Below, one piece after another: positions 5,479 to 38,462 of a stretch of DNA of 43,536 bases (its first letter is position 1; each line of letters opens with the position of its first letter). The DNA is from Paecilomyces variotii (lineage: Eukaryota), in NCBI GenBank assembly GCA_004022145.1, contig RCNU01000034.1; one strand, written 5' to 3'. Below the pieces are notes generated by a model, which did not search any database, was not told the DNA's origin, and saw only the letters and a list, made by a program, of their open reading frames with translations. The position numbers and the translations under genes were made by a program.

Positions 5479-6246
5479 TAAGCCCTTAGGTTACGCTACG
5501 CGTATCTTAGACTTACTTATAGATTTTATAGCTAGCTAGTTAATATAGATTTAAAGGCTATTGCTTTAGATTTTAATTAGTATATAAATTATTAGCGCTT
5601 TATACTTAGTTTTAAATAGAGAATTTAAAGGTATTAGATATAAAACAATTTAAGTTTAAGGCTTCTAGAGGCTCTAAACTTAAATTCTATAAGTAAATTA
5701 AGTAGTTATATAATTAAAAGAATTCCTTTATTCTATACTTTAAAGCAATTAGCCTTAAGACCTATATAATACTTATAGTTTTAGTATTTATTATAGTAAT
5801 AATATGCCTTAAAATTTACTTTAAGCTTTAGAATTTAATATTTATACTTATAGTTATTATATATATTTATACTAGCTTAATATATATATTTAGCTAATAA
5901 GATAAGCTAGAGATTAGCGGGTCTAAGATATTTTAATATTTGTATTTATAGTTAGTATATATAACTATATTAGCTTAGTATTTATCTTAAGCTAATAAGA
6001 GAATTTAAAAGTTAATAAGTCTAAAAAGTTTTAATATTTTTATAGATAGTTATTCTATATAATTATATTAACTTAGTATTTTCTCTTAGCTAATAAGAGG
6101 CCCTAAGTCCCTATAGGCTTCTATACTTTTAGTCTCTATATACTAGTATTTTTCGCATTTAAGAAGATTTAATTAGCCTAAGAAACTTAAGAGAATTTAA
6201 TTAGCTTAATGCGCTTTACGCTAAAGTTTTATATTATTTACTTAGA
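5479..6246 (-). mobile_element. Non-autonomous Helitron-like element 1 (768 bp)
   Basis: Absent from the other Copia copies; its removal restores the host exactly (AATTATATTA|TTATTAAAAGC) with no TSD, at an A|T site. Minus-strand 5' end is TC and 3' end is CTTA (non-canonical, possibly RIPed CTTG). Hairpin TACGC-TAC-GCGTA (5492-5504, extendable to 5486-5510) lies near the 3' end. Confidence 0.6.
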
Positions 6247-7737
6247 TTATTAAAAGCTAATATTATAATTAACTATTAAGTATTAATTATAAAATATAAT
6301 CTAGATAATTCTCTTTAAAAGCTTAAGGTATACCTTATTATTTAAAGATTTACTTAAAAATATAGTATTAATTTTAAGTATATCTTTATTCTTATCTTAT
6401 AATATAATATATTATAAATATTTCTAGCTATTATTATAATAAAGGATTATAAATATTATATTATAAATATTAATAATATCTTTATAAAATTAATATTAAA
6501 GAAAGAAATTTATATAATACCTTTATTAAAAATAAATATATTATTAAAAATAATATTAAAAGTTTTTTAATCTTTATATAGTTTAAAATAAGCTCTAAAA
6601 GATTAAAATTAAACCTATATAAAAATATTCTAAAAAATAGGTTTTATATAGACTAATATTAATCTATACTTATTATAATATTTAGAGAAAAAGATCTTAT
6701 TCTTAATATATATTAATAATATCCTAATTAATATAAAATAAATAGAGAATATTTACTAGTTTAAATAAGAGTTTATAAATTAATATATAAGATAAAGAAT
6801 CTAAGAGAAATAAAAAAGATCCTTAGTATTTAAGTTATTTAAAATAAAAAAGACTAAATATTAATAATAGACTAATCTTATTATATTAAAGAACTCTTAT
6901 TATAATATAAAATAAGTAAAGAAAAGATATATTTAGTTAATATCTTATTAAATAGATATAATTCTCTAAAACTATTTAGCCTTTAAAATAAAAAAGTAAA
7001 TTAAAGAAAGTATTAAAAGATTATTAATAGCTTAATTTATTTAATAATTTTAATAAGACTAAATATTATATTTATAATAAGTAGATTAAATTAATATTTA
7101 TTAAATCTATTTAAAAAATATTTTAAAATATTAAAATCCCTTATAAAATACTTATAATTAATTATATACTTTAGTCTTAAGTTTAATATAAACTAAGACT
7201 AATAATTTATTAAGTATTTAAACTTAGATTATATAATAAATAAGACTAATTAAATATTAATCTTAAAGAATATTTTTATTTTAATTAATAGCTTAATAAG
7301 CTAATTAAATAAGAAGTAAAAGTTTATTATAACTTTAACTATAGAGGCTAAATATATAGCTATATATTAAGCTATAAAATAGTCTTAATAATTAGCCCTT
7401 TTTTTAAAAGATATAAAATATAGGTATTATATTAGTTTAAATAAATTTAAGCTAATAATAAAAAAAGAATAAGCTTTTATTATTAGTTCTCTAATTAAAG
7501 TTTATAGAGATAATTAAGTATTACTATTACTAATTAGAAATACTTATACCTATAAAAAGTTAAAGTATATTAATATTATATATTATTATATATATAATCT
7601 ATACTAAAGAAATAGAATTAGTATTAAGTTTATTAAAATAGCAGATAATTTTACTAAATTACTGCTAAAGGCAGACTTTTTAAAATTTCTAGGTTAATTA
7701 AAATTAACTAACTTAGTAAGTTTAAACTAAGAAAAAA

Positions 7738-8010
7738 TATTATAAAATAATAGTTAAAACTAGTAAGTTTTAATATAATAAAGATTTTACTTTAAAAAAA
7801 TCTTTAAAAATAATTTTACTTTAGTAAAATTAAGCGGCTTAGAGAAATTATTTCTTAAGCTTTATTTAAAATCTATTACTCTAACTAAAAATATATAAAT
7901 ATACTTTATATTTACTATATATACTAATACTCTTTTTCCTTAAATATTATTAGCCCTTTAAGTTAGTTAAATAGTCTAGGGAATTTTATTTAAACTTATT
8001 CTTTTTAACT
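7738..8010 (+). repeat. Copia 3' LTR (273 bp), ending ..TTAACT
   Basis: Preceded by a purine tract (~7729-7737). Reverse complement of the LTRs at 22497-22769, 29663-29935, 37757-38032 and 42570-42842. Confidence 0.9.
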
Positions 8011-8155
8011 AAAAGAGTAATATAAATTTAATAATAAAATAATTAAGTAAAACTTAAAAATCTAATAGAAAAAAAGGAAAATCTTATTAATTCTATTAAT
8101 TCCTTTTTTTAAAGCTTTTTAAAGCCCTTTTTAAAGAAATCTTATTAATAGCTTA

Positions 8156-8845
8156 TATAAGGCGCAGGCTTTAGCAGTACCCCGTAAACCCCCGGGAACC
8201 CCGACTACTAGGCTATATAGTTTAGTGCTAGCTTAACTACGCTTAGGCGTAGTTATTATAGTCTTTTTAGCTGAGTAGTTAAAGAATTCAGTTCACATAA
8301 CCTAGAGCTAGCTAGGTCCTTAACAGAATAATTACGCCTCCCGGTTAAAGCCCTAAGTTTAAATTCGCCTGAGGCTGTAAGCTTTTTAAGCTAGGTTCGC
8401 GGTTGCTTAGCTAAGCTGCTTAGGCAGGCTACTTAGCTAAGCACGGGCGGGTGCGGGCGATATTCGCGCTCGGCGCAGGGGCGGAGTTAACCGGCAAAAT
8501 CCTAGTAATTTTGGGGCCTAACAAGCTTATAGCAGGAGGTAAGGCCTCTTAGCTTAACTATTAGTCGGGGCGAAGAAGTCCTAGCTAGGGGGAGCTAGGC
8601 AGGATCCTAAGCGTGCGCTGCGGCGGCGTGCTAGCTGAACGGCTCGAGGGCGAGCCTAATTTAGGGGAGAGATACTGTAAGGCGCAGGCCTTAGCAGTGC
8701 CCCGTGAACCCCCGGGAACCCTAACTATTAGGCTATATAGTTCGGTGCTAGCTTAACTACGCTTAGGCGTAGTTATTGTAGTCTTTTTAGCTAAGTGGTT
8801 AAAGGATCTAGTTTACGTGACCTAGAGCCAGCTAAGTCCTTAATA
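8156..8845 (+). mobile_element. TRIM (terminal-repeat retrotransposon in miniature), 690 bp, non-coding
   Basis: 170-bp LTRs at 8156-8325 (TATAAGG..TTAACA) and 8676-8845 (TGTAAGG..TTAATA), giving consensus TG..CA. PPT GGGGAGAGA(TAC) at 8664-8675. 4-bp TSD CTTA (8152-8155, 8846-8849), confirmed against the uninterrupted host in copy B. 350-bp GC-rich internal region with no ORF in the supplied track. Confidence 0.93.
8327..8339 (+). promoter_or_regulatory. TRIM primer-binding site complementary to its own LTR (self-priming type)
   Basis: AATAATTACGCCT pairs 12/13 with LTR 8245-8257 AGGCGTAGTTATT (the mismatch is a C>T/G:U). The target lies ~26 nt downstream of TATATA (8214-8219). Confidence 0.7.
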
Positions 8846-10008
8846 CTTATATTATTACCTTAAATTTAGCTAATATATTTTAAATATATTTAAGGTTCTT
8901 TTTAAGCTATTATAAATTTTTATAATCTAAATAGCTTTTTTATTTAATTAAATATTATTTTTTTATATTATTTATTTATTTAGAATAGCTTTAATCTCTT
9001 ATTCTAGTTTATTATCTACTAAGATTAAGTTTAAATACTTAAGTTTAGCCCTAAGTCTCTAATAATAAGGCTTTAATAAAGAGATATAAAAGATTAAATA
9101 TATTTTACCTAGACTCTTTAAGAGCTTAAGCTAATAGGCTTAAGTTTTAATTCTCTCTATAACTTTATAAGGTCTTAAATATTTTATATCTAGTTTTTTA
9201 ATTAATTAATCTATTTTTAAATTCTTTATTAAAAAGCAGACTTAATCTCTTATTATATAGAATCTAGGCTTATATTTCTTATTATAATATTTCTATTATA
9301 TAATAATAGCCTTTTAAAGGAATTTTTTTAATTAAATATAGATTTTAATAAGTTCTTTTAATTAATTATTAATTACTAGTATATTTATTTACTTCTTAAA
9401 GTTATATTTATCTTAACTCTTAAAATTAAATTTATAGATAATATAGAAGAAACTTATATTTATAAAAATATAGATTAAATTATTATATATAAACTCTGCT
9501 ATAGTTAATAAAAATACCTAATTATTTTATTTATAGTTTAAGTAAACTTAAAGATAATACTTTAGTATTTAATTTTACCTTTTAGTCTAGCTATTAATCT
9601 AAGGATAAAATATAATATTTAAAAGTCTAGTAATTTAAATATAGTAATAAAGTTCTATTTAATATTTATTAATAAATAATATACCTCTATTTAATATAAT
9701 TAACTATAAAGGTTTAAAGTAGTTATAGATATAATCTATAATAAGATTAGTTATTTTATCTACCTTTAATATTTTATAAGTAAAGATATAAAGTATTATC
9801 TTTAAGTAATAATTTATAATTACTAATATTAAATTATAAGTAATTCTTTATTTCTTTAATAATAGTAGTCTTATTATAAAATCTATTAAAATATTTTATT
9901 ATAGCTATATTAAGATTAATAAAAACTTTAACTTTTTATATAGTTTATATTATAAAGTTTAATTTCTCTAGTAGATATTATATATAGATATATATTCTTA
10001 TATATCTT

Positions 10009-10440
10009 TGTCATGCCCCTAGCTCCCCGCTAGGGCATAAGCTCGCAGAACTGCAGCAAAGCCCCGAATCTAAATATAATACCGAGGTAATTAGTTAAAC
10101 CTCGCTCTCCCCACTTTTAGGATTTATATAAGATAAAGCTGGGAAGTGCTTGAGATTTAGAATATAAATAGGCTCTAGATTGCTGTCTTACTAGAAGCTA
10201 GCAATCTGTTTTAATATAATATATATTTTACTATTTCCTTACTTATATAAACTCTTTATTATTAGAATCTTCTAGCATAGACTCTTCTCCTTGCTGGTTA
10301 GACCCTTTATTATAATAGTTAACCCTTTATCTTGCTAATAAACCCTTCTTTAAGCTAGATATATAAAGCTGCTACCCCTCTCGCTATAATTGCTGGCGAA
10401 GTAATTTACTAACAACTTCTAGGAACTCCTATTCTTTATA
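10009..10440 (+). repeat. Copy B 5' LTR (432 bp)
   Basis: Direct repeat of 17098-17529. TATAAATA at 10163-10170. Confidence 0.95.
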
Positions 10441-10459
10441 ATTTAGATCACTTTACCTA

Positions 10460-13400
10460 GCAATATAAATAGCTGTATTAATATACCCTATAACTTAGGA
10501 GATAAGGGTCCTAGCTCTTAGCCTGTAGTATATACTCTAAAGAGTTTAGAGATTATTAAATCTAGCATATAGTAACTAATTGTTAAAGCTAGCTTATAAA
10601 TTCTAAGAGATACTCTAACAGGCCCAGGGATAAAGTAAGCTTAAATAGAAGATAAATTATTAATAAAGAGAGACCTTCTATAGCTCCTTGCTGCTAATCA
10701 TATTAATAAATAGCTAAGGCTTAAACTGCCGGAACTATAGAGATATAAAGCTATTATATTTAATACCTATTATTAATAGTGCTAGTATATAAATAAATAC
10801 TTGGCTTATAATACTTTATTATTTAAAGATAAAGCTGAGAAGATTACTTATACTATAGTATTGCTAGATAAAGAACTGGCTTAATCTTAGATCTATTAGT
10901 AAGAGGATCCTAACTTCCAGATACTAACTTAGGAAGGATTTAAAGATTAGTTGCTAAATTTGCTTAATAATCTATATTATTAAGGATAGAATATAATAAA
11001 CCGCTTTTATACCTTAATCTAATATTTTAATTAAACTATCTAAGCCTTCCTATACTATTTTAAGCAGGCTTAAATAGAGTTAAATTAGGGTAAAGGGTTT
11101 AACTATAATAGAATTATCTAGTCTTATATCTTCTATATAAAACTATAACCTGAGGTTTAGATAGGATTGCTGAATTATTAAGATCTTCTAATAAACCTTA
11201 ACTAATTAGCATCTTTAGCTACTAATTAGAAGATAAACTAAAAAAAGAATAAGACTATAAATTAACTTACTCTGCTAAATATAAATAGATTAATATAGAA
11301 TATATTAAAGGACTCCCCCTTAGAATAAAAGAAGAAGGAGATTAGTAACTAGTGTGCAAAGTTAACTAAACCTTAAAAAAAGAAGAAGTTTAAATTGCCA
11401 GCAGAATAAGATTAGCTTAAAAAAAAAGGCCGCTGCTTTAACTATAATAAAATAGGCTATATATAAGGATCTAAATTATATCTAAAAAGGAAAGACCTTT
11501 TTAAAAAAGGAAAACCTAAGATTATTGCAGCCCTTTACGATAAAGAGTCTAAGCTAAAGGAAGAATTTTTATATATCCTAATATAATTATATCTTCCTAA
11601 CAATATATTTAAAGATAAGGCCTTTATTAATTCTAGATTAGCCCGCTATTATATTAGCCTAGATATAGCTATATATTATAGAATTCCTTTAAACTTCTAA
11701 TAGTATATAAACTTTAAATCTATTAATGGGTATAAAATTTAGAAATATAAATTATTTAAAGCAGAGATCTATATTACTAACTCTAAAGGAATAATAGAGA
11801 AGGTAAAAATATATTTTTATATTATCCTAATACCTAGATTAAGTATTATCCTTAAGAAATTATAGCTATATATTATAAATCCTATTATAGATTAAGAGTT
11901 AATAACTTAAAGATATTATATTCTATATTAGCTATAAGTAAAAATTAAAAGTATTTAATAATTCTCTAAGATAGTAAGAGGAGAGATAATCTATATATTT
12001 TATAGGGACTAAATTGACCTTATTATTCCTAAAGACTTATCTCTAGAATATAAAAAATATGCTGAGGTCTTCTTAGAGAAGGATATAAGTATATTACCCG
12101 CTAAAATAGGTAAATATAAGATTAAACTCCTAAATAGCAAGGCGCCTCTATAAGATAGACTTTATAACCTCTTTATTAAAGAATTAGATATTCTGTATAA
12201 ATATCTTAAAGATATATAATAAAAGGATTAAATATAACTATTAACTAGTCCCGCAGGGGCGCTTGTTTTATTTATTCTAAAGGCAAATAATATACTAAGG
12301 CTCTATATTAACTATAGAGCTTTAAATAGTATTATTATAAAAAACAGATATTTTTTACCCAGGGTAGATAAAATGCTTAACCGATTAGTTAGCTCTAAAA
12401 TCTTTATTAAGCTCAATCTTAAGGATGCCTATTATTAGATTTAAATCTGCTAAAGAGATAAATAGAAGATAGCCTTCTAAACCTATTATAGATACTTTAA
12501 ATATTTAATAATATTATTTGGCCTATATAATACGCCTGCTATTTTTTAAGCCTATATTAATTAAGCATTATAGGGGTTATTAGATATTTATTATATTATA
12601 TATTTAGATAATATCTTAATCTTCTCTAACTCTATTAAAAAGTATAAGAGATATATAGCGCAGGTCCTAGAGAGGCTGCAAAAGTATAAATTATATATAA
12701 AATTATCTAAATATAAATTCTATAAGAAGAGAGTTAAATTTCTTAATTTTTTTATAAGAAAAGATAGAATAGAAATAGATCTTAGTAAAATAGAAACTAT
12801 TAGAGACTGGCTAGAGCCTAAATCTTTTAAGGAAATCTAAGTCTTCCTAGGATTTGTTAGTTTTTTTAGAAGATTTATCTATAACTACTTTATAAAGATA
12901 GCTCCTCTAACTAATCTATTAAAAAAAAGCATCTAAAAGAAAAAAATTAGGATATTTATTTAAATTAAAGAAGCCGCGAAGGCATTTAATAAGCTAAAAT
13001 TAGCTTTTATAACTCCGCCAGTGCTAAGGTATTTTAATCTGGAGAAGCCAATAATATTAGCAACTAATATTTTAAGATTTGCCCTTATTGCTATATTCCT
13101 TTAAGGAGATAGTAATAAGATAGCTTTAGATATTGGGTTAAAGATAAGTCTAAGAATTAGAACCTAGATAGACTAATAAACTATATTTAAGAACTAGCAC
13201 CCTATAGCATATTATATCTAGAAGTTTATTAAAATAAAGGTATACTATAAGGTCTATAACTAAGAACTCCTGGCTATTGTTAATATTTTTAAATATTAGC
13301 ATTATTATCTAGAAGATAATAGACACCCTATATAGATATAGAGCAATTATATAAACTTACGCTATTTCTTTATTATAAAGATATTAAATAATAGATAAGC

Positions 13401-15216
13401 TTAGTAAATAAAACTATTGGCAGTGTATAACTTTTAAATTAAATATAAGCTGGGATAGCTTAATATTATAAATACCCTATTTAGAAGGATAGATTTCAAA
13501 CTATCTAAATCTAAATCCTAAATAAGATTACTTCTAATCCTCTAGAAAAAGCTCTGGTATAAAATTTAGGATAAGTATATATAAGAAAGCAATCTAGAGT
13601 ATAAACCTATTAAAGCAGGCGGTATAAGTAGTCTAGAATATTTAGTATAAAGAATACTAGTTATCAGGGTAATTAGGGAAGAGTTTATTTAAAATATTAT
13701 AACTCTTAGCCTGCTCTTTATATTAAAACAGCTTTAAGCAAAGGACGCCTTTATCTTAAAAAAAACTAGGGAATTAAAAGTATATACTCCTAGAGATAGC
13801 TTAGAAACAGTATAGAGAATAAATAGCAAAAGACTATTATAGAAGAATAGTGCTATATTTATACTAGATATACTCACTATAAAGTAAAAGCTCCTTTAAA
13901 TATATTATAATAACCTTTATATAGGGTATTAAGATATTAAGAAGATTAAAGAGCTGCTTTAAAGAAGATTTAACTAGCCTAAGATAGTATAAGATATATA
14001 GGAATATATATCTATATATAATATCTGCCAAAGGAACTAAATTCTATAATATAGGCTATATAAAGAGCTAAAATCTTTACTAATCCTAATATAGCTATAA
14101 TAGAGTATCTTAATAGATTTTATAGTAGGACTGCCGCTGTTAAAGAAATAGGGAGTTATTTATAATTTAATATTAGTAATTATAAACTGCTATTTAAAGA
14201 TAGTGCTCTATATCTCTATCTATAAAATATTAAAGGCAAATAAGATAGCTAACCTTATTATAGATTATATCTATAACCGCTTTAAACCTTTATAGTTAAT
14301 TATATTAAATAGGGGGGCGCTGTTTATTAATAAATACTAGATAGAATTTTATTATTATATTTAAATTATTAGACTTTTAAGCACTATATTCTACCCCTAG
14401 ATTAATAGCCAGACTAAAAGGCAGAACTAGATGCTAGAGTATTATCTCTAGGTTTATTTAAATTACAAGTAAGATAATTGGGCATTCTTATTAACTATAG
14501 CGGAGTTTATATATAATAATTTAATCTATATCTTTATAGGTATAACTCCCTTCTATATTATCTATAAATTTAACCCTAAGAATTAGGATAAATATAATTC
14601 TAGGAAGCAAATAGATATACTAGCAATTAATAATTAATTAAAGGAACTTACTAAAATACGCGCTTAATTAGAAAAATCTCTTTAAAAGGCTATTACTGTG
14701 TAATAAAAGCATTATAATAAAAAGTATAAGCCTAGATCCTATATAGTAGGAGACTGAGTCTGCCTTTTAATAAAGAATTTAAAGACAGATTAATTAATTA
14801 AGAAACTAGATATAAAATACTCAGGATCTTATAAAATCATAGAGAGAATTAGAACTTAAGCCTATTAGTTTAAGCTCTTAAAGAGCCTAGGCAGAATATA
14901 TTTAATCTTTTATATCTCCCTATTAGAGCCCTACTGTCAGAGACTAGGAGCTAAACCTAAATATTTAGACCCGATCTTAATAGATGATAAACTAAAATAA
15001 GAGATTAAAGCCATTCTAGATAAATAGATAATATAGGGGAAGAAGCAATATTTAATTAAATAAAAGGGCTATCTAGATTATAAAAATTTATAATAGCCTA
15101 AGGAGGACCTTAAGTATGCCTAAAATATACTAGCTAAATTTAAGGCGATAGTATAAGCTATTAATAAGACCTCTTTAAGAAGGGCTCTAAGAAGCTCTAG
15201 AAAAAGGAGTCGATAA
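10460..15216 (+). pseudogene. gag-pol polyprotein relic with C-terminal chromodomain (start approximate)
   Basis: Zinc knuckle GRCFNC..GH (11428-), protease A(L)IDSG (11620-11637), RT SPAGAxVLF (12247-), YLDD relic TATTTAGATAAT (12601-12612), RNase H (~13060-13320), integrase HHCC (~13900-14030), ISMDF.VGLP (14107-), HPQTDGQTERQN (~14392-14427), GPY (~14824), chromodomain EIEAILD..YL.KWKGY (15001-15075). Knuckle, PR, RT and chromodomain are all in one frame. Many RIP stops. Confidence 0.93.
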
Positions 15217-17097
15217 AATTAATAAAATTTCCCTTTTTTTTTACTAAGTTTATAGGTTTTATTTAACTATTTTATTATTAAATTTATATTACTCTTTCTC
15301 TATTTACCTATTTATAGAGGTTTAGGAGTTTTAATAAGGATATAAGAAGCTAGTCTACCTGGAAATAAATTTATTTTGATTAGGCTACCCCTAGCAGGAA
15401 TTAAAAATATAGGCCTAAGATTAATTTCCCTTATTTATCTATTTTATTATTATAGAACCCTATTAGCATAGATTTATTCTTCTCCTTATTAGAGAAAGGA
15501 GGAATATTATAAATAATATATATAATTTCTTGCATATACTACAGATCTAATATTATTAAATAAAGCAATCTAAGTAATTCTTGCTAAAGCTATATTATAG
15601 ACTACTTATATAAAGATAAGGTTAATAGGACAATAGATATAAGCTTATCTATATCTGCTTTAATAGGCGCTTTATATAAATATACCTCTATAGAGGATTT
15701 ATACTTATTATAGGCCTCCTTAAAAGACCTATAATTATTTAAAAGATGGGCCTTTTAGCTAAAGCTCTATAGATAAGTAAGCTTATCCTTATAAACTAAT
15801 AGGACTAGAATATAGGGCTTATGCTTATAATTATAATAGTTATACTTAATATTAGTATTAGTATAGGTATACTAAAGTATTAGATTCTTAATCAGCCCCT
15901 TTAAATAATAAAGATATATCTTTTAAGGTATTAGAGGAAACTTCTTACCCGGCTAAGAGATAATAAGGCTATTTTTTATTATTATATTAGTAATAGCAAT
16001 AATAATAATCTTAACTAGTATCTTAATAACAACTAGTTTAGTCTAGGTCCCTATATTAATAACTTCCTTATGCCCTATATTCTATCTTTAGGATCTTTTT
16101 ATAGTATAAGCAGGAGTTATTCTTAGCTTAGCTATAGTAGCTAACTTAATAATAAGATAAGTTCTCTTCTTTTTTAGTAGGCTTTTTAGCGCTGTTATTA
16201 AATTAGATAGACCTATTTATATAATAGCTAGGATTATAAAAAAAGGCTAATCTAATAAAGATATAAACCTTCTATACCTTAATTTTAGCGTGATATTTAT
16301 CTTAGCCAATAAATTCTTTATAGGACTTAAGGTAAATAGAGATACTGACCTATTAATAGCTATAAAAGGGGTAATATTTATTTAAGGAGGCAGTCTTTCT
16401 AGTATTATAACAGCAGCTAGAGTCTTTAATATCTTAATAATAGTTAGGGGATTATTTTCTAATATTATAATAGCAATTAGATTTAGTTATATTATAATAG
16501 CAGCAGCTATATTCTCTATTTTAGAGATAAGAGGAGGGGATAGCTCCCTAAAGGGGGAGGTAATATTTTTAGGCTATTAATACTATAGAAATTAGTATAT
16601 AATATATAAAATCTTATACTAGAACACTTACTTAAAGAATCTTCTTATATTGCTTAAATATAAAATAAATTTGGGGCAGCATTATCTAAATTAAATTAGC
16701 TTATATTAATATAATTAATTAAGATAATTTACCCTTAAAGCAGGAAGCTCTAAAAACTAATAAAAAAATAACTAATTTTTTAAGCTTAATAAACTACTAT
16801 ATTATTAGCACTATTATAACCTTAAAAACATATTTAGATCTTTATTTAAATATATTTAGGATTAGGAGCTATATATAATAGGAAGTAGGAAAATAATTAC
16901 TAGGGGTTAGAATTCTAACCTTATAATATTATATAAATAATACTCCTAGCTTATATAATTTTTTAACCTTTTACCGCAAAAGCGGTAAGAAGCTCTTTTA
17001 TTTACTATATTATAAACCTCTATAAAGCTATACTCTACATTTAATATAATAACTTTATAACGGCTTAAGGATGAGCCTTTAAAAAAAGGGGGGATAC

Positions 17098-17529
17098 TAT
17101 TATACCCCTAGCTTCCTGCTAGAATATAAGCTTACAGAACTATAATAAAGCCCCAAATCTAAATATAATACTAAGATAATTAGTTAAACCTCGCTTTTCC
17201 CGCTTTTAGGATTTATATAAAATAAAGTTAGGAAGTATTTAAGATTTAGAATATAAATAGGCTTTAGATTACTATCTTATTAGAAGCTAGCAATTTGTTC
17301 TAATATAATATATACCCTACTATTTCTTTACTTATATAGACTCTTTATTACTAGAACCCTTTAACATAGACCCTTTTCTTTACTAGTTAGACCCTTTATT
17401 ATAATAGTTAACCCTTTATCTCACCAATAGACCCTTCTCTGAGCTAAATACGCGAAGCTGCTACCCCTCTCGCTATAATCGCTGGCGGAGTAATTCGCCA
17501 GCAACCTCTAGGAACCCCCGTTCCTTACA
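17098..17529 (+). repeat. Copy B 3' LTR (432 bp)
   Basis: Direct repeat of 10009-10440, preceded by the PPT. Confidence 0.95.
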
Positions 17530-33700: not shown

Positions 33701-34900
33701 TTAAAGAGCTATTAATTATTAAATAAATTAATCTTATTTACTATTTAATCTTAATAATCCTTATAATATATCTTTAAATAATAGTAATAATTAATCTTTT
33801 AATAAAGATATTAATTTTAAGATTATTTTAATATCTTTATCTAAACCTTTTGCTAAATATATATTAGCTAGAGATAAAATATCTATAGAGTATATATTAA
33901 GCAAAGGTTAAAAAAGAAATTAATCTAGAGGTTTTAATTATTATTAGAGCTAGATTTAATTTAAGATTAAGCAGACTAAGCTAAGTTTTAAAAAATTAGA
34001 CTTAGATTATTATTCTTAATATAGATTAAGTATAGAGTATATATTAAATAGAGGTTAAGGAAAGGGTTAATTTAGAGATTTTAGTTATTATTAAAGCTAG
34101 GTTTAATCTAGGATTAAGTAAACTAAGCTAAGCTCTAAATAATTAGACTTAGATTATTATTCTTAATATAGATTAAATATAGAGTATATACTAAATAGAG
34201 GTTAAGGAAGAGATTAAAAAAGAAATTAACCTAGAGGTTTTAATTATTATTAGAGCTAGATTTAATTTAGGACTAAGCAGATTAAGCTAAGCTCTAAAGA
34301 ATTAAACTCGGATTATATTTCTTAATATAGATTAAATATAAAGTATATATTAAATAAAGGTTAAGAAAGGGGTTAATTTAGAGGTTCTAGTTATTATTAG
34401 AGCTAGGTTTAATTTAAGATTAAGCAGATTAAGCTAAGCTCTAAAAAATTAGACTTAGATTATTATTCTTAATATAGATTAAATGCAGAATATATATTAA
34501 ATAAAGGTTAAAAAAGGGGTTAATCTAAAGGTTCTAGTTATTATTAGAGTTAGGTTTAATCTAGGACTAAGTAAATTAAGCTAAGCTCTAAAAAATTAAA
34601 CTTAAATTATTATTCTTAATATAGATTAAGTAAAGAGTATATATTAAATAGAGGTTAAAGAAGAGGTAGACCTAAAGGTTTTAATTATATTTAAGGCTAA
34701 GTTTAATTTAATATTATTTTAATATCTAAAAGGGTTTAAATCCCTTTATTAAATTTAAATAGCTCTACTAGTTTTAATCTAGAATATATATTAACTCTAT
34801 ATTTAATATATATTATCTAGGAGTTAAGTATAGATTCTAAATAGAATAGAGCTTATATATACTATAATAGAGGACCCTTATTAAAAGAAATAGTAGAGAC
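30750..34900 (+). pseudogene. Intron-containing MULE-type DDE transposase relic (limits approximate)
   Basis: De-RIPed LEMDLAYKMVFG (32677-32712), ITVDMCKKQA (32961-32990), then G-FGDYL across an intron acceptor at 33041, IFCQVH CxxH motif (~33110-33127), and ESSH....N..GRNLSLLGAI (33377-33439). Example intron GTAAGT..GCTAAT..TAG at 31999-32041. Confidence 0.65.
33884..34710 (+). repeat. 147-bp tandem repeat, ~5.5 units, within the MULE
   Basis: Unit starts at 33884, 34031, 34178, 34337, 34484 and 34631 (spacings 147,147,159,147,147, all multiples of 3). Confidence 0.93.
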
Positions 34901-38291: not shown

Positions 38292-38462
38292 TGTTAAGGA
38301 CTTAGCTAGCTCTAGGTTACGTAAACTAGATCCTTTAACTACTTAGCTAAAAAGACTACAATAACTACGCCTAAGCATAGTTAAGCTAGCACCGAACTAT
38401 ATAGCCTAGTAGTTAAGGGTTCCCGGGGGTTCGCGGGGCACTACTAAGGCTAGCGCCTTATA
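38292..38462 (-). mobile_element. Solo LTR of the TRIM family (171 bp)
   Basis: Reverse complement of 8156-8325 / 8676-8845. Flanks do not form a TSD. Confidence 0.93.

What the first reader, a model, noticed from the sequence alone, without database searches (positions are those of the whole stretch)
8156..8845. Miniature non-coding LTR element (TRIM) that appears to self-prime like Tf1 rather than use a tRNA
Seen: complete 690-bp element with 170-bp LTRs, PPT and CTTA TSD. The 13 nt after the 5' LTR (8327-8339) are complementary to LTR 8245-8257, ~26 nt downstream of a TATATA box, where a transcript would start. That LTR segment is also the 3' arm of a perfect 9-bp hairpin (8234-8255). Known: Tf1/sushi-group Gypsy elements prime from their own RNA 5' end, whereas most described TRIMs have tRNA PBSs. 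Inference: a self-priming parasite of a chromovirus. Its PPT ends in GATAC like the resident Gypsy, but the 4-bp TSD (versus 5 bp) points to a different helper family. It is also the least RIPed sequence here.
Basis: partly seen in the sequence, partly recalled or inferred. Interest (0 to 1): 0.75.

Follow-up and report, generated by a model that had tools for sequence, protein, structure and literature searches.

The report
Self-priming miniature LTR retrotransposon in fungus
This is a real 690-base non-coding LTR retrotransposon whose primer-binding site matches its own repeat instead of a tRNA, so it probably starts its own copying the way the yeast element Tf1 does, which is a neat but incremental addition to known transposon biology.

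Summary
Window 8156-8845 is a complete 690-bp non-coding LTR element. It has 170-bp LTRs, TG..CA ends, a purine tract and a 4-bp CTTA target duplication. An uninterrupted paralogous site in the same window and contigs that join across the element fix these limits.

The 13 nt at 8327-8339 pair with LTR 8245-8257, with 12 Watson-Crick pairs and 1 G:U. None of 5000 LTR shuffles reaches this. Most other copies in public runs carry C, not T, at 8332, which makes the match 13 of 13. Copies in two further runs have changes at 8340/8341 that would extend it to 15. No TGG follows the LTR.

An RNA starting at 8245 folds with its first 13 nt on this site. An RNA starting 20 nt upstream instead locks them in the LTR hairpin. 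Tf1-like self-priming is therefore the best reading, at about 0.65.

The transcript start, the RNase H cut and the helper element were not tested. The genome's tRNAs could not be checked because no genome is held. Fungal TRIMs and self-priming fungal Gypsy elements are both known; only their combination appears undescribed in the searched literature.

The parts
8152..8155 (+). Left copy of the 4-bp target-site duplication (CTTA)
   Evidence: The paralogous empty site has a single CTTA. Contig joints skip 694 = 690 + 4 bases.
8156..8325 (+). 5' LTR, 170 bp (TATAAGG..CCTTAACA; the TG start is mutated to TA)
   Evidence: 149 of 170 positions identical to the 3' LTR, and all 21 differences are transitions.
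8214..8219 (+). TATATA box in the LTR, 26 nt before 8245 (inferred promoter element)
   Evidence: It is present in all three LTR copies in the window. Its function is inferred, not tested.
8234..8255 (+). LTR hairpin or palindrome: 9-bp stem TAACTACGC / GCGTAGTTA with loop TTAG
   Evidence: (I10). It forms in the minimum-energy fold and the centroid when the RNA starts at 8225.
8245..8257 (+). Putative self-primer (AGGCGTAGTTATT), the inferred 5' end of the element's RNA
   Evidence: Complementary to 8327-8339. Identical in the 5' LTR, 3' LTR and solo LTR. The transcript start is not mapped.
8327..8339 (+). Primer-binding site (AATAATTACGCCT), 1 nt after the LTR; T8332 is C in most other copies
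   Evidence: 8332 T>C in 1 of 2 depth classes in X1, the majority of depth in X2, 2 of 2 contigs in X10, and 129.5 of 148.8 depth in X17. No TGG in the 25 nt after the LTR.
8326..8675 (+). Non-coding internal domain, 350 bp, 54% G+C, with a 26-nt-spaced internal duplication (8401-8416 / 8427-8442)
   Evidence: No ATG ORF of 30 aa or more. No Rfam family: the only hit, E = 8.2, lies in the flank. Repeat family D2.
8663..8675 (+). Polypurine tract AGGGGAGAGA plus TAC, abutting the 3' LTR
8676..8845 (+). 3' LTR, 170 bp (TGTAAGG..CCTTAATA; the CA end is mutated to TA)
8846..8849 (+). Right copy of the target-site duplication (CTTA)
38292..38462 (-). Solo LTR of the same family, 171 bp, with no target duplication. 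It sits where the host repeat lacks about 333 bp.
   Evidence: (93% identical to the 3' LTR).
15154..15157 (-). Paralogous empty site: the matching point in the resident Gypsy copy, with a single CTTA
   Evidence: the flanks 8040-8155 and 8850-8960 align without a gap to the reverse complement of 15000-15400.

Best explanation
The element is a non-autonomous, non-coding LTR retrotransposon of TRIM size. It inserted into a reverse-oriented, heavily RIP-mutated fragment of the resident Gypsy family.

Its first-strand primer is most likely its own RNA. The steps below are inferred unless marked as shown.

1. Transcription starts about 26-31 nt downstream of the LTR TATATA box, near 8245 (inferred).
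2. The first 13 nt, AGGCGUAGUUAUU, fold back onto the site one base after the 5' LTR. The complementarity is shown; the fold is predicted.
3. A helper element's RNase H cuts after the duplex, as between nt 11 and 12 in Tf1 (inferred).
4. The freed 3'-OH primes minus-strand synthesis through U5 (inferred).
5. The purine tract at 8663-8672 primes the plus strand (inferred).
6. A helper integrase inserts the cDNA with a 4-bp stagger. The duplication itself is shown.

Because each cycle recopies the PBS from the primer, new copies carry a perfect match. T8332 in this copy is then a C-to-T mutation acquired after insertion.

The LTR hairpin would sequester the same 13 nt wherever they are preceded by U3. 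That applies to the 3' LTR and to read-through RNAs. Only RNA started at the LTR's own start site would then be competent.

Gag, RT/RNase H and integrase must all be supplied in trans, presumably by a Tf1/sushi-type chromovirus that has not been identified.
For: Structure and limits
- Complete LTR-element anatomy.
- A precise empty site in the window.
- Contigs that skip exactly 694 bases: 3 in X1, 2 in X2, 2 in X10 and 1 in X17.

Complementarity between the PBS and the LTR
- 13-nt duplex reached by 0 of 5000 LTR shuffles and 2 of 5000 PBS shuffles.
- Other copies read C at 8332, giving 13 of 13 Watson-Crick pairs. Depth with C: X1 59.5 of 110.6, X2 2328.2 of 2749.2, X10 25.7 of 25.7, X17 129.5 of 148.8.
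- 8340 and 8341 read A in X10 (32.3 of 32.3 and 17.9 of 32.3) and in X17 (129.5 of 148.8 each). These are transversions that would pair with T8244 and T8243 and extend the duplex to 15 nt.
- Among the 40 best-supported differences listed, the 13-mer itself shows only the 8332 change, while 8322, 8340 and 8341 beside it vary.
- No TGG in the 25 nt after the LTR.

Folding
- RNA 8245-8365 and RNA 8245-8420 both fold with nt 1-13 on 8327-8339, in the minimum-energy structure and the centroid.
- RNA starting at 8225 folds the LTR hairpin instead.

Family and literature
- Contigs in X10 and X17 tile the same short internal domain, so this is a family (table 8).
- The Tf1 PBS starts with ATAAC (PMC11042837 passage). 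That motif also stands at 8328-8332 once 8332 is C.
- Weak hint of transcription: in the RNA library X17 the element's summed depth is 149-352 against 30-87 for the flanks. In the DNA run X1 the ratio is reversed, 57-212 against 958-2848. The tool itself warns that contig depth is a poor measure of expression and that DNA may be present in such a library.
Against: - No transcript start is mapped. The contigs cannot show one.
- No tRNA set of this genome could be compared, so priming by an internal tRNA fragment is not excluded.
- A G-to-A change at 8246, the second base of the putative primer, is frequent among the LTR copies laid: X1 186.7 of 295, X2 4607.5 of 5028.5. Whether 8338 compensates is unknown, because 139 of 179 differences were not shown.
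- The two extra duplexes of the Tf1 'pretzel' (PMC10085805 passage) do not appear in the predicted folds. U5 forms two local hairpins instead.
- The longer fold is not unusually stable: z = -0.69, and 47 of 200 shuffles fold as well.
- Another internal stretch, 8427-8441, also pairs with the LTR, 15 nt with 4 G:U.
- One X17 contig has a 5' LTR-to-internal junction whose PBS region is too diverged to align (joint 8845 to 8371).
- X1 and X2 may be the window's own source, so they are not independent support.
- No helper element was found.
Confidence: 0.65

Rival explanations
1. The element is a TRIM primed by a host tRNA or tRNA fragment, as in classical TRIMs or copia/Ty5-type half-tRNA priming. 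The match to its own LTR would then be incidental, or serve only as RNA structure.
For: - Classical TRIMs have tRNA primer sites (PMC6934838 passage).
- The reverse complement of 8333-8344 (CCGGGAGGCGTA) looks loosely like a tRNA T-stem plus acceptor strand. This is my own reading, not a database match.
- The genome's tRNAs could not be checked.
Against: - No TGG follows the LTR.
- Reading 8329-8331 TAA as a RIP-mutated TGG needs a G-to-A change in the disfavoured GpG context, fixed in every copy. No A-to-G at 8330 or 8331 is among the best-supported differences, while T-to-C at 8332 is.
- The LTR carries TT opposite these two A's in 3 of 3 LTR copies in the window.
- The LTR match itself is far beyond chance.
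Confidence: 0.1
2. The LTR-PBS complementarity is a structural RNA element, a U5-leader stem of the kind retroviruses use around the primer site, or a packaging or dimerisation signal. The true primer would be something else and remains unknown.
For: - The stem closes a compact predicted domain with two U5 hairpins.
- Tf1 itself needs a structure likened to the retroviral U5-IR stem-loop. I saw only the title of Lin and Levin 1998, in the reference lists.
- Some fungal elements are said to have novel priming modes (Tcn2-5; PMC7175516 passage).
Against: - The paired site lies exactly where a PBS must be, 1 nt after the LTR.
- The partner lies at TATA-box distance, where an RNA 5' end is expected.
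- No other candidate primer site is visible.
Confidence: 0.15
3. The element is a dead relic. Its self-primer architecture was inherited from an autonomous ancestor by internal deletion, and these short copies were never mobilised as such.
For: - Few copies: roughly 3-5 single-copy-depth variants in X1.
- All copies show RIP-type changes.
- No helper was found in the window.
Against: - The same short internal domain is tiled by contigs in a second organism (X10) and in a metatranscriptome (X17) (table 8).
- A solo LTR exists.
- This copy has its own target duplication, at a site that is empty in paralogues. The short form therefore transposed.
Confidence: 0.07

Closest known systems
[quoted passage not shown]
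   Same: - The PBS just after the 5' LTR is complementary to a short stretch inside the LTR, where the RNA is expected to begin: 11 nt in Tf1 and 13 nt here (PMC7175516; PMC4600332).
- There is no tRNA-type TGG site.
- The Tf1 PBS begins with ATAAC (PMC11042837), as does 8328-8332 in the majority form.
- The host is a fungus.
   Different: - This element encodes nothing, so it cannot be placed in that clade by RT or integrase.
- The predicted fold shows the central duplex but not the two side duplexes of the 'pretzel' (against PMC10085805).
- The target duplication is 4 bp. The resident Gypsy here has 5 bp. That Tf1 also has 5 bp is recalled, not checked.
- The primer is half of an LTR hairpin.
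TRIMs (terminal-repeat retrotransposons in miniature), including fungal ones such as RLX_TRIM_Sinope of Parastagonospora nodorum
   Same: - Under 1 kb, with terminal repeats of 100-250 bp, a PPT, no coding capacity, and several copies (definition in PMC6934838).
- Fungal TRIMs keep a high G+C content in RIP-active genomes, attributed to their short length (PMC8549362).
   Different: - The definition includes a PBS complementary to a tRNA. Here the site matches the element's own LTR.
- I found no paper that describes a self-priming TRIM. The supplements of those papers were not read.
biv-TRIM of bivalves and GalEa-type elements without a conventional PBS
   Same: A miniature LTR element that lacks a tRNA-type PBS and has conserved inverted segments (PMC6934838 passage).
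   Different: The authors could propose no priming mechanism there. Here the complementary partner, its position and the predicted fold all point to one specific mechanism.

Membership tests
LTR retrotransposon (structural definition) | Two direct long terminal repeats ending in TG..CA | tested here: met
   170-bp LTRs, 149 of 170 positions identical. TG is kept in the 3' LTR and CA in the 5' LTR; the other ends carry transition mutations to TA.
LTR retrotransposon (structural definition) | Target-site duplication, and an empty site without the element | tested here: met
   CTTA on both sides. The in-window paralogue has a single CTTA. Eight contigs in 4 runs skip 694 bases.
LTR retrotransposon (structural definition) | Polypurine tract abutting the 3' LTR | tested here: met
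   AGGGGAGAGA at 8663-8672, 3 nt before the LTR.
TRIM | Total length under 1000 bp, with terminal repeats of 100-250 bp | tested here: met
   690 bp and 170 bp. Definition from the PMC6934838 passage.
TRIM | No coding capacity (non-autonomous) | tested here: met
   0 ATG ORFs of 30 aa or more on either strand.
TRIM | PBS complementary to a tRNA | tested here: not met
   No TGG in the 25 nt after the LTR, and the site matches the element's own LTR instead. The genome's tRNAs could not be compared, so internal-fragment priming stays formally open.
TRIM | A family of several copies sharing the short architecture | tested here: met
   Contigs in X10 and X17 tile 8199-8845 with no large insertion. 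There are several single-copy-depth variants in X1 and a solo LTR in the window.
Tf1-type self-priming | PBS complementary to a stretch of the element's own LTR | tested here: met
   12 Watson-Crick pairs plus 1 G:U here, 13 of 13 in the majority of other copies, and possibly 15 in X10 and X17.
Tf1-type self-priming | That stretch is the exact 5' end of the element's RNA | not testable with these tools
   Only the TATATA box 26 nt upstream supports it. The contigs laid cannot show RNA ends.
Tf1-type self-priming | Three-duplex 'pretzel' RNA structure around the primer-PBS duplex | tested here: inconclusive
   The central duplex is in the minimum-energy fold and the centroid. The two side duplexes were not predicted. 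There are too few full sequences of other copies to test covariation.
Tf1-type self-priming | RNase H cleavage of the RNA duplex releases the primer | not testable with these tools
   This needs biochemistry. The mechanism is cited from the PMC7175516 passage.
Tf1/sushi chromovirus clade | Placement by RT and integrase, with a chromodomain | not testable with these tools
   The element has no genes. The resident Gypsy has RVT_1, RNase H, Integrase_H2C2 and SH3_Tf2-1 hits but shows no sequence relation to the element.

The most novel reading that the evidence does not exclude
This would be the first described non-autonomous retroelement that primes its own reverse transcription. It would show that the primer-PBS fold alone is a sufficient cis signal for a helper's RT/RNase H.

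It would also carry a built-in switch. The LTR hairpin masks the 13-nt primer wherever U3 precedes it, that is, in the 3' LTR and in read-through RNA. Only transcripts begun at the LTR's own start site could then be copied.

Its 4-bp duplication would mark a helper chromovirus lineage different from the resident 5-bp Gypsy.
Probability: 0.3. Interest if true: 0.55.

Novelty: new variant of a known kind. Interest (0 to 1): 0.4.

Why it matters
Self-priming has been studied in autonomous elements, where the RNA structure and the enzymes that read it evolve together. A 690-bp passenger carrying only the cis signals would be a minimal natural substrate. It would help define what RT/RNase H recognises in a self-primer, and would show that the mechanism can act in trans.

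It also bears on TE annotation in fungi. Pipelines that require a tRNA-type PBS would miss or misclassify such elements. Short elements of this kind are among the transposons that stay active in RIP-proficient genomes (PMC8549362).

The gain is modest, because both ingredients are already known.

Tried and rejected
- Whole genome. None is held, so there is no copy census, no tRNA set and no search for a helper.
- tRNAs in the window: 0 found.
- Earlier findings of this scan: nothing relevant.
- JGI metagenome scans.
  - LTR-hairpin pattern: 0 matches.
  - LTR-end plus PBS pattern: 4 loci, L001-L004. All share only 15-27 nt with the element and are unrelated chance hits.
- Rfam on 8100-8900: 1 hit, E = 8.2, in the flank. 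I treat it as chance.
- Does the resident Gypsy self-prime? The best duplex is 8 nt, ATTTAGAT against 10068-10075. It lies directly after the LTR and about 30 nt past a CATAAG. But 232 of 2000 shuffles reach it, so the test is inconclusive.
- Is the element derived from the resident Gypsy? Transition-tolerant local alignments of the LTR and the internal domain against the G1 LTRs, leader and 3' end stay within or just above the shuffled scores. The best alignment is mostly transition 'matches' and is rejected.
- Further heavily RIP-mutated copies of the internal domain in the window. The best RIP-directional score is 61, against a null maximum of 56 in only 20 shuffles. No convincing copy.
- Six-frame Pfam scan of the whole window.
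- Primary Tf1 papers (PMC1369541, PMC230564, PMC109269). Not held. Tf1 details come from passages in later papers.
- Reading 8329-8331 TAA as a RIP-mutated TGG. Considered and rejected; see the first rival.
- Low RIP as a sign of youth. Rejected as a necessary inference, because shortness and low copy number are enough to explain it (PMC8549362 passage).

Full report
**Observation**

The stretch 8156-8845 is a complete miniature LTR element.
- The repeat finder and BLAST give two 170-bp direct repeats, 8156-8325 and 8676-8845. They differ at 21 of 170 positions, and all 21 are transitions.
- The repeats read TGTAAGG..CCTTAACA. The TG of the 5' copy and the CA of the 3' copy are mutated to TA, which is the RIP direction.
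- CTTA flanks both ends. AGGGGAGAGATAC abuts the 3' LTR.
- There is no ATG ORF of 30 aa or more, and no Rfam family matches the element.
- G+C is 49.3%, against 14% in both flanks and 26% in the resident Gypsy.

**Limits and mobility**

The flanks belong to a reverse-oriented, heavily mutated fragment of the resident Gypsy family. Flanks 8040-8155 and 8850-8960 align without a gap to the reverse complement of 15000-15400, where a single CTTA stands at 15154-15157.

Public-run contigs agree. Contigs join 8151 to 8846, skipping 694 = 690 + 4 bases: 3 in X1, 2 in X2, 2 in X10 and 1 in X17. The 4-bp duplication is therefore real for this insertion. The resident Gypsy (10009-17529) has a 5-bp duplication, ATCTT.

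A 171-bp solo LTR of the same family lies at 38292-38462 on the minus strand. It has no duplication and sits at a point where the host repeat lacks about 333 bp.

**It is a family, not a one-off deletion**

Contigs from a second organism (X10) and from a food-fermentation metatranscriptome (X17) tile the element. Pieces cover 8199-8495, 8231-8402, 8333-8565, 8373-8779 and 8426-8758, at 80-95% likeness and with no large insertion. X1 holds several variants at single-copy depth (table 8). X1 and X2 may be the window's own source and are not independent.

**The priming site**

- The 13 nt at 8327-8339 (AATAATTACGCCT), one base after the LTR, pair with 8245-8257 (AGGCGTAGTTATT), with 12 Watson-Crick pairs and one G:U. 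This is reached by 0 of 5000 dinucleotide shuffles of the LTR and 2 of 5000 shuffles of the post-LTR 25-mer.
- The wobble position 8332 is C in most other copies: X1 59.5 of 110.6 depth, X2 2328.2 of 2749.2, X10 25.7 of 25.7, X17 129.5 of 148.8. The family's PBS is therefore a perfect 13-mer complement, and T8332 is a later C-to-T change.
- In X10 and X17, 8340 and 8341 read A. These are transversions, so they are not RIP. They would pair with T8244 and T8243 and lengthen the duplex to 15 nt.
- Among the 40 differences shown out of 179, the 13-mer carries only the 8332 change, while 8322, 8340 and 8341 next to it vary.
- There is no TGG in the 25 nt after the LTR.
- The LTR partner is identical in all 3 LTR copies in the window. 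It begins 26 nt after the last base of a TATATA box.

**Folding**

- RNA 8245-8365 folds with its first 13 nt on the PBS, in both the minimum-energy structure and the centroid: -28.9 kcal/mol, z = -2.87, and 1 of 200 shuffles folds as well.
- The same duplex persists in the fold of 8245-8420, although that longer fold is not unusually stable overall: z = -0.69, 47 of 200.
- If the RNA starts at 8225, the 9-bp LTR hairpin (8234-8255) forms instead and the PBS duplex is lost.

This suggests, by inference only, that the hairpin masks the primer wherever U3 precedes it.

**Comparison with what is known**

- The structure is a three-duplex 'pretzel' shared by Tf2, Tj1, Tosmo1-3 and Tcry1 (PMC10085805 passages; PMC4600332 passages).
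- The Tf1 PBS begins with ATAAC (PMC11042837 passage). The majority form here reads A-ATAAC-TACGCCT. From memory only, the Tf1 primer also ends in AGTTAT as this one does; no call verified that.
- The side duplexes of the pretzel were not predicted here.
- TRIMs are defined with a tRNA-complementary PBS (PMC6934838 passage).
- Fungal TRIMs are known, and their high G+C is attributed to shortness, below the RIP length threshold (PMC8549362 passages).
- Full-text searches for TRIM or non-autonomous elements together with self-priming returned no paper that describes such an element.

**What remains open or counts against**

- The transcript start is unmapped.
- The genome's tRNAs are unavailable.
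- G-to-A at 8246 is common among the LTR copies laid: X1 186.7 of 295, X2 4607.5 of 5028.5. I could not see whether 8338 compensates.
- One X17 junction has a diverged PBS region.
- The resident Gypsy shows no sequence relation to the element. Its own possible self-primer is not significant: 232 of 2000 shuffles reach it.
- The 'GATAC' end of the purine tract reads GATGC in other copies: 8674 A-to-G in X17 at 251.9 of 282.3. The resemblance to the Gypsy tract may be a product of RIP.
- The LTR 3' ends are alike (TCCTTAACA against TCCTTACA), which hints at related integrases, but the duplication lengths differ.
- The RNA-library depth pattern, with the element above the flanks in X17 and the reverse in X1, is only a weak hint of transcription.

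**Verdict**

The element is best read as a TRIM-sized, non-autonomous LTR retrotransposon with a Tf1-type self-primer, at about 0.65. It is a new variant of known kinds and of moderate interest.

Noticed in passing
window 8245-8344 (seen in contigs of runs X1 and X2, table 5): One RIP-mutated paralogue (1 contig in X1, 1 in X2) joins 8245 to 8344 on opposite strands. The U5 segment between the putative primer and the PBS appears inverted in that copy. The breakpoints coincide with the two complementary 13-mers, which suggests recombination or template switching between them. The contig sequence itself could not be read.
   Followed up: partly
window 10009-17529: A RIP-mutated, full-length Gypsy element.
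- LTRs of about 432 bp, TGTCATG..CCTTACA.
- 5-bp duplication ATCTT.
- Purine tract AAAAAAAGGGGGGATAC.
- Pfam hits RVT_1, RNase H, Integrase_H2C2 and SH3_Tf2-1, read with stops as X.
- Its first 8 nt after the LTR (ATTTAGAT) pair with 10068-10075, about 30 nt past a CATAAG, but this is not significant: 232 of 2000 shuffles reach it.
   Followed up: partly
window 38292-38462 (minus strand): A solo LTR of the TRIM family with no target duplication. It replaces about 333 bp of the host repeat: compare 6223-7158 plus 7491-8091 with 39403-38462 plus 38291-37659. This fits recombination between two elements inserted at different points.
   Followed up: partly
window 8401-8442: The internal domain holds a 16-nt motif repeated 26 nt apart (8401-8416 and 8427-8442). 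Other copies differ here: a loose end at 8422 in X2 and skips 8403 to 8472 and 8403 to 8485. Some copies also carry a 7-nt insertion after 8507. The internal domain is therefore structurally variable while the PBS is not.
   Followed up: no
window 33869-34716: A block of tandem repeats with a period of about 150 bp (self-matches offset by about 150, 300, 450 and 600 bases at 82-85% identity), in the only part of the right half with G+C above 20%.
   Followed up: no
whole window: Apart from the TRIM and the Gypsy copy at 10-17.5 kb, the window is 12-19% G+C. It is built from nested, mutually inverted fragments of the same few repeat families, the pattern of a RIP-degraded, centromere-like or heterochromatic AT isochore.
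   Followed up: no
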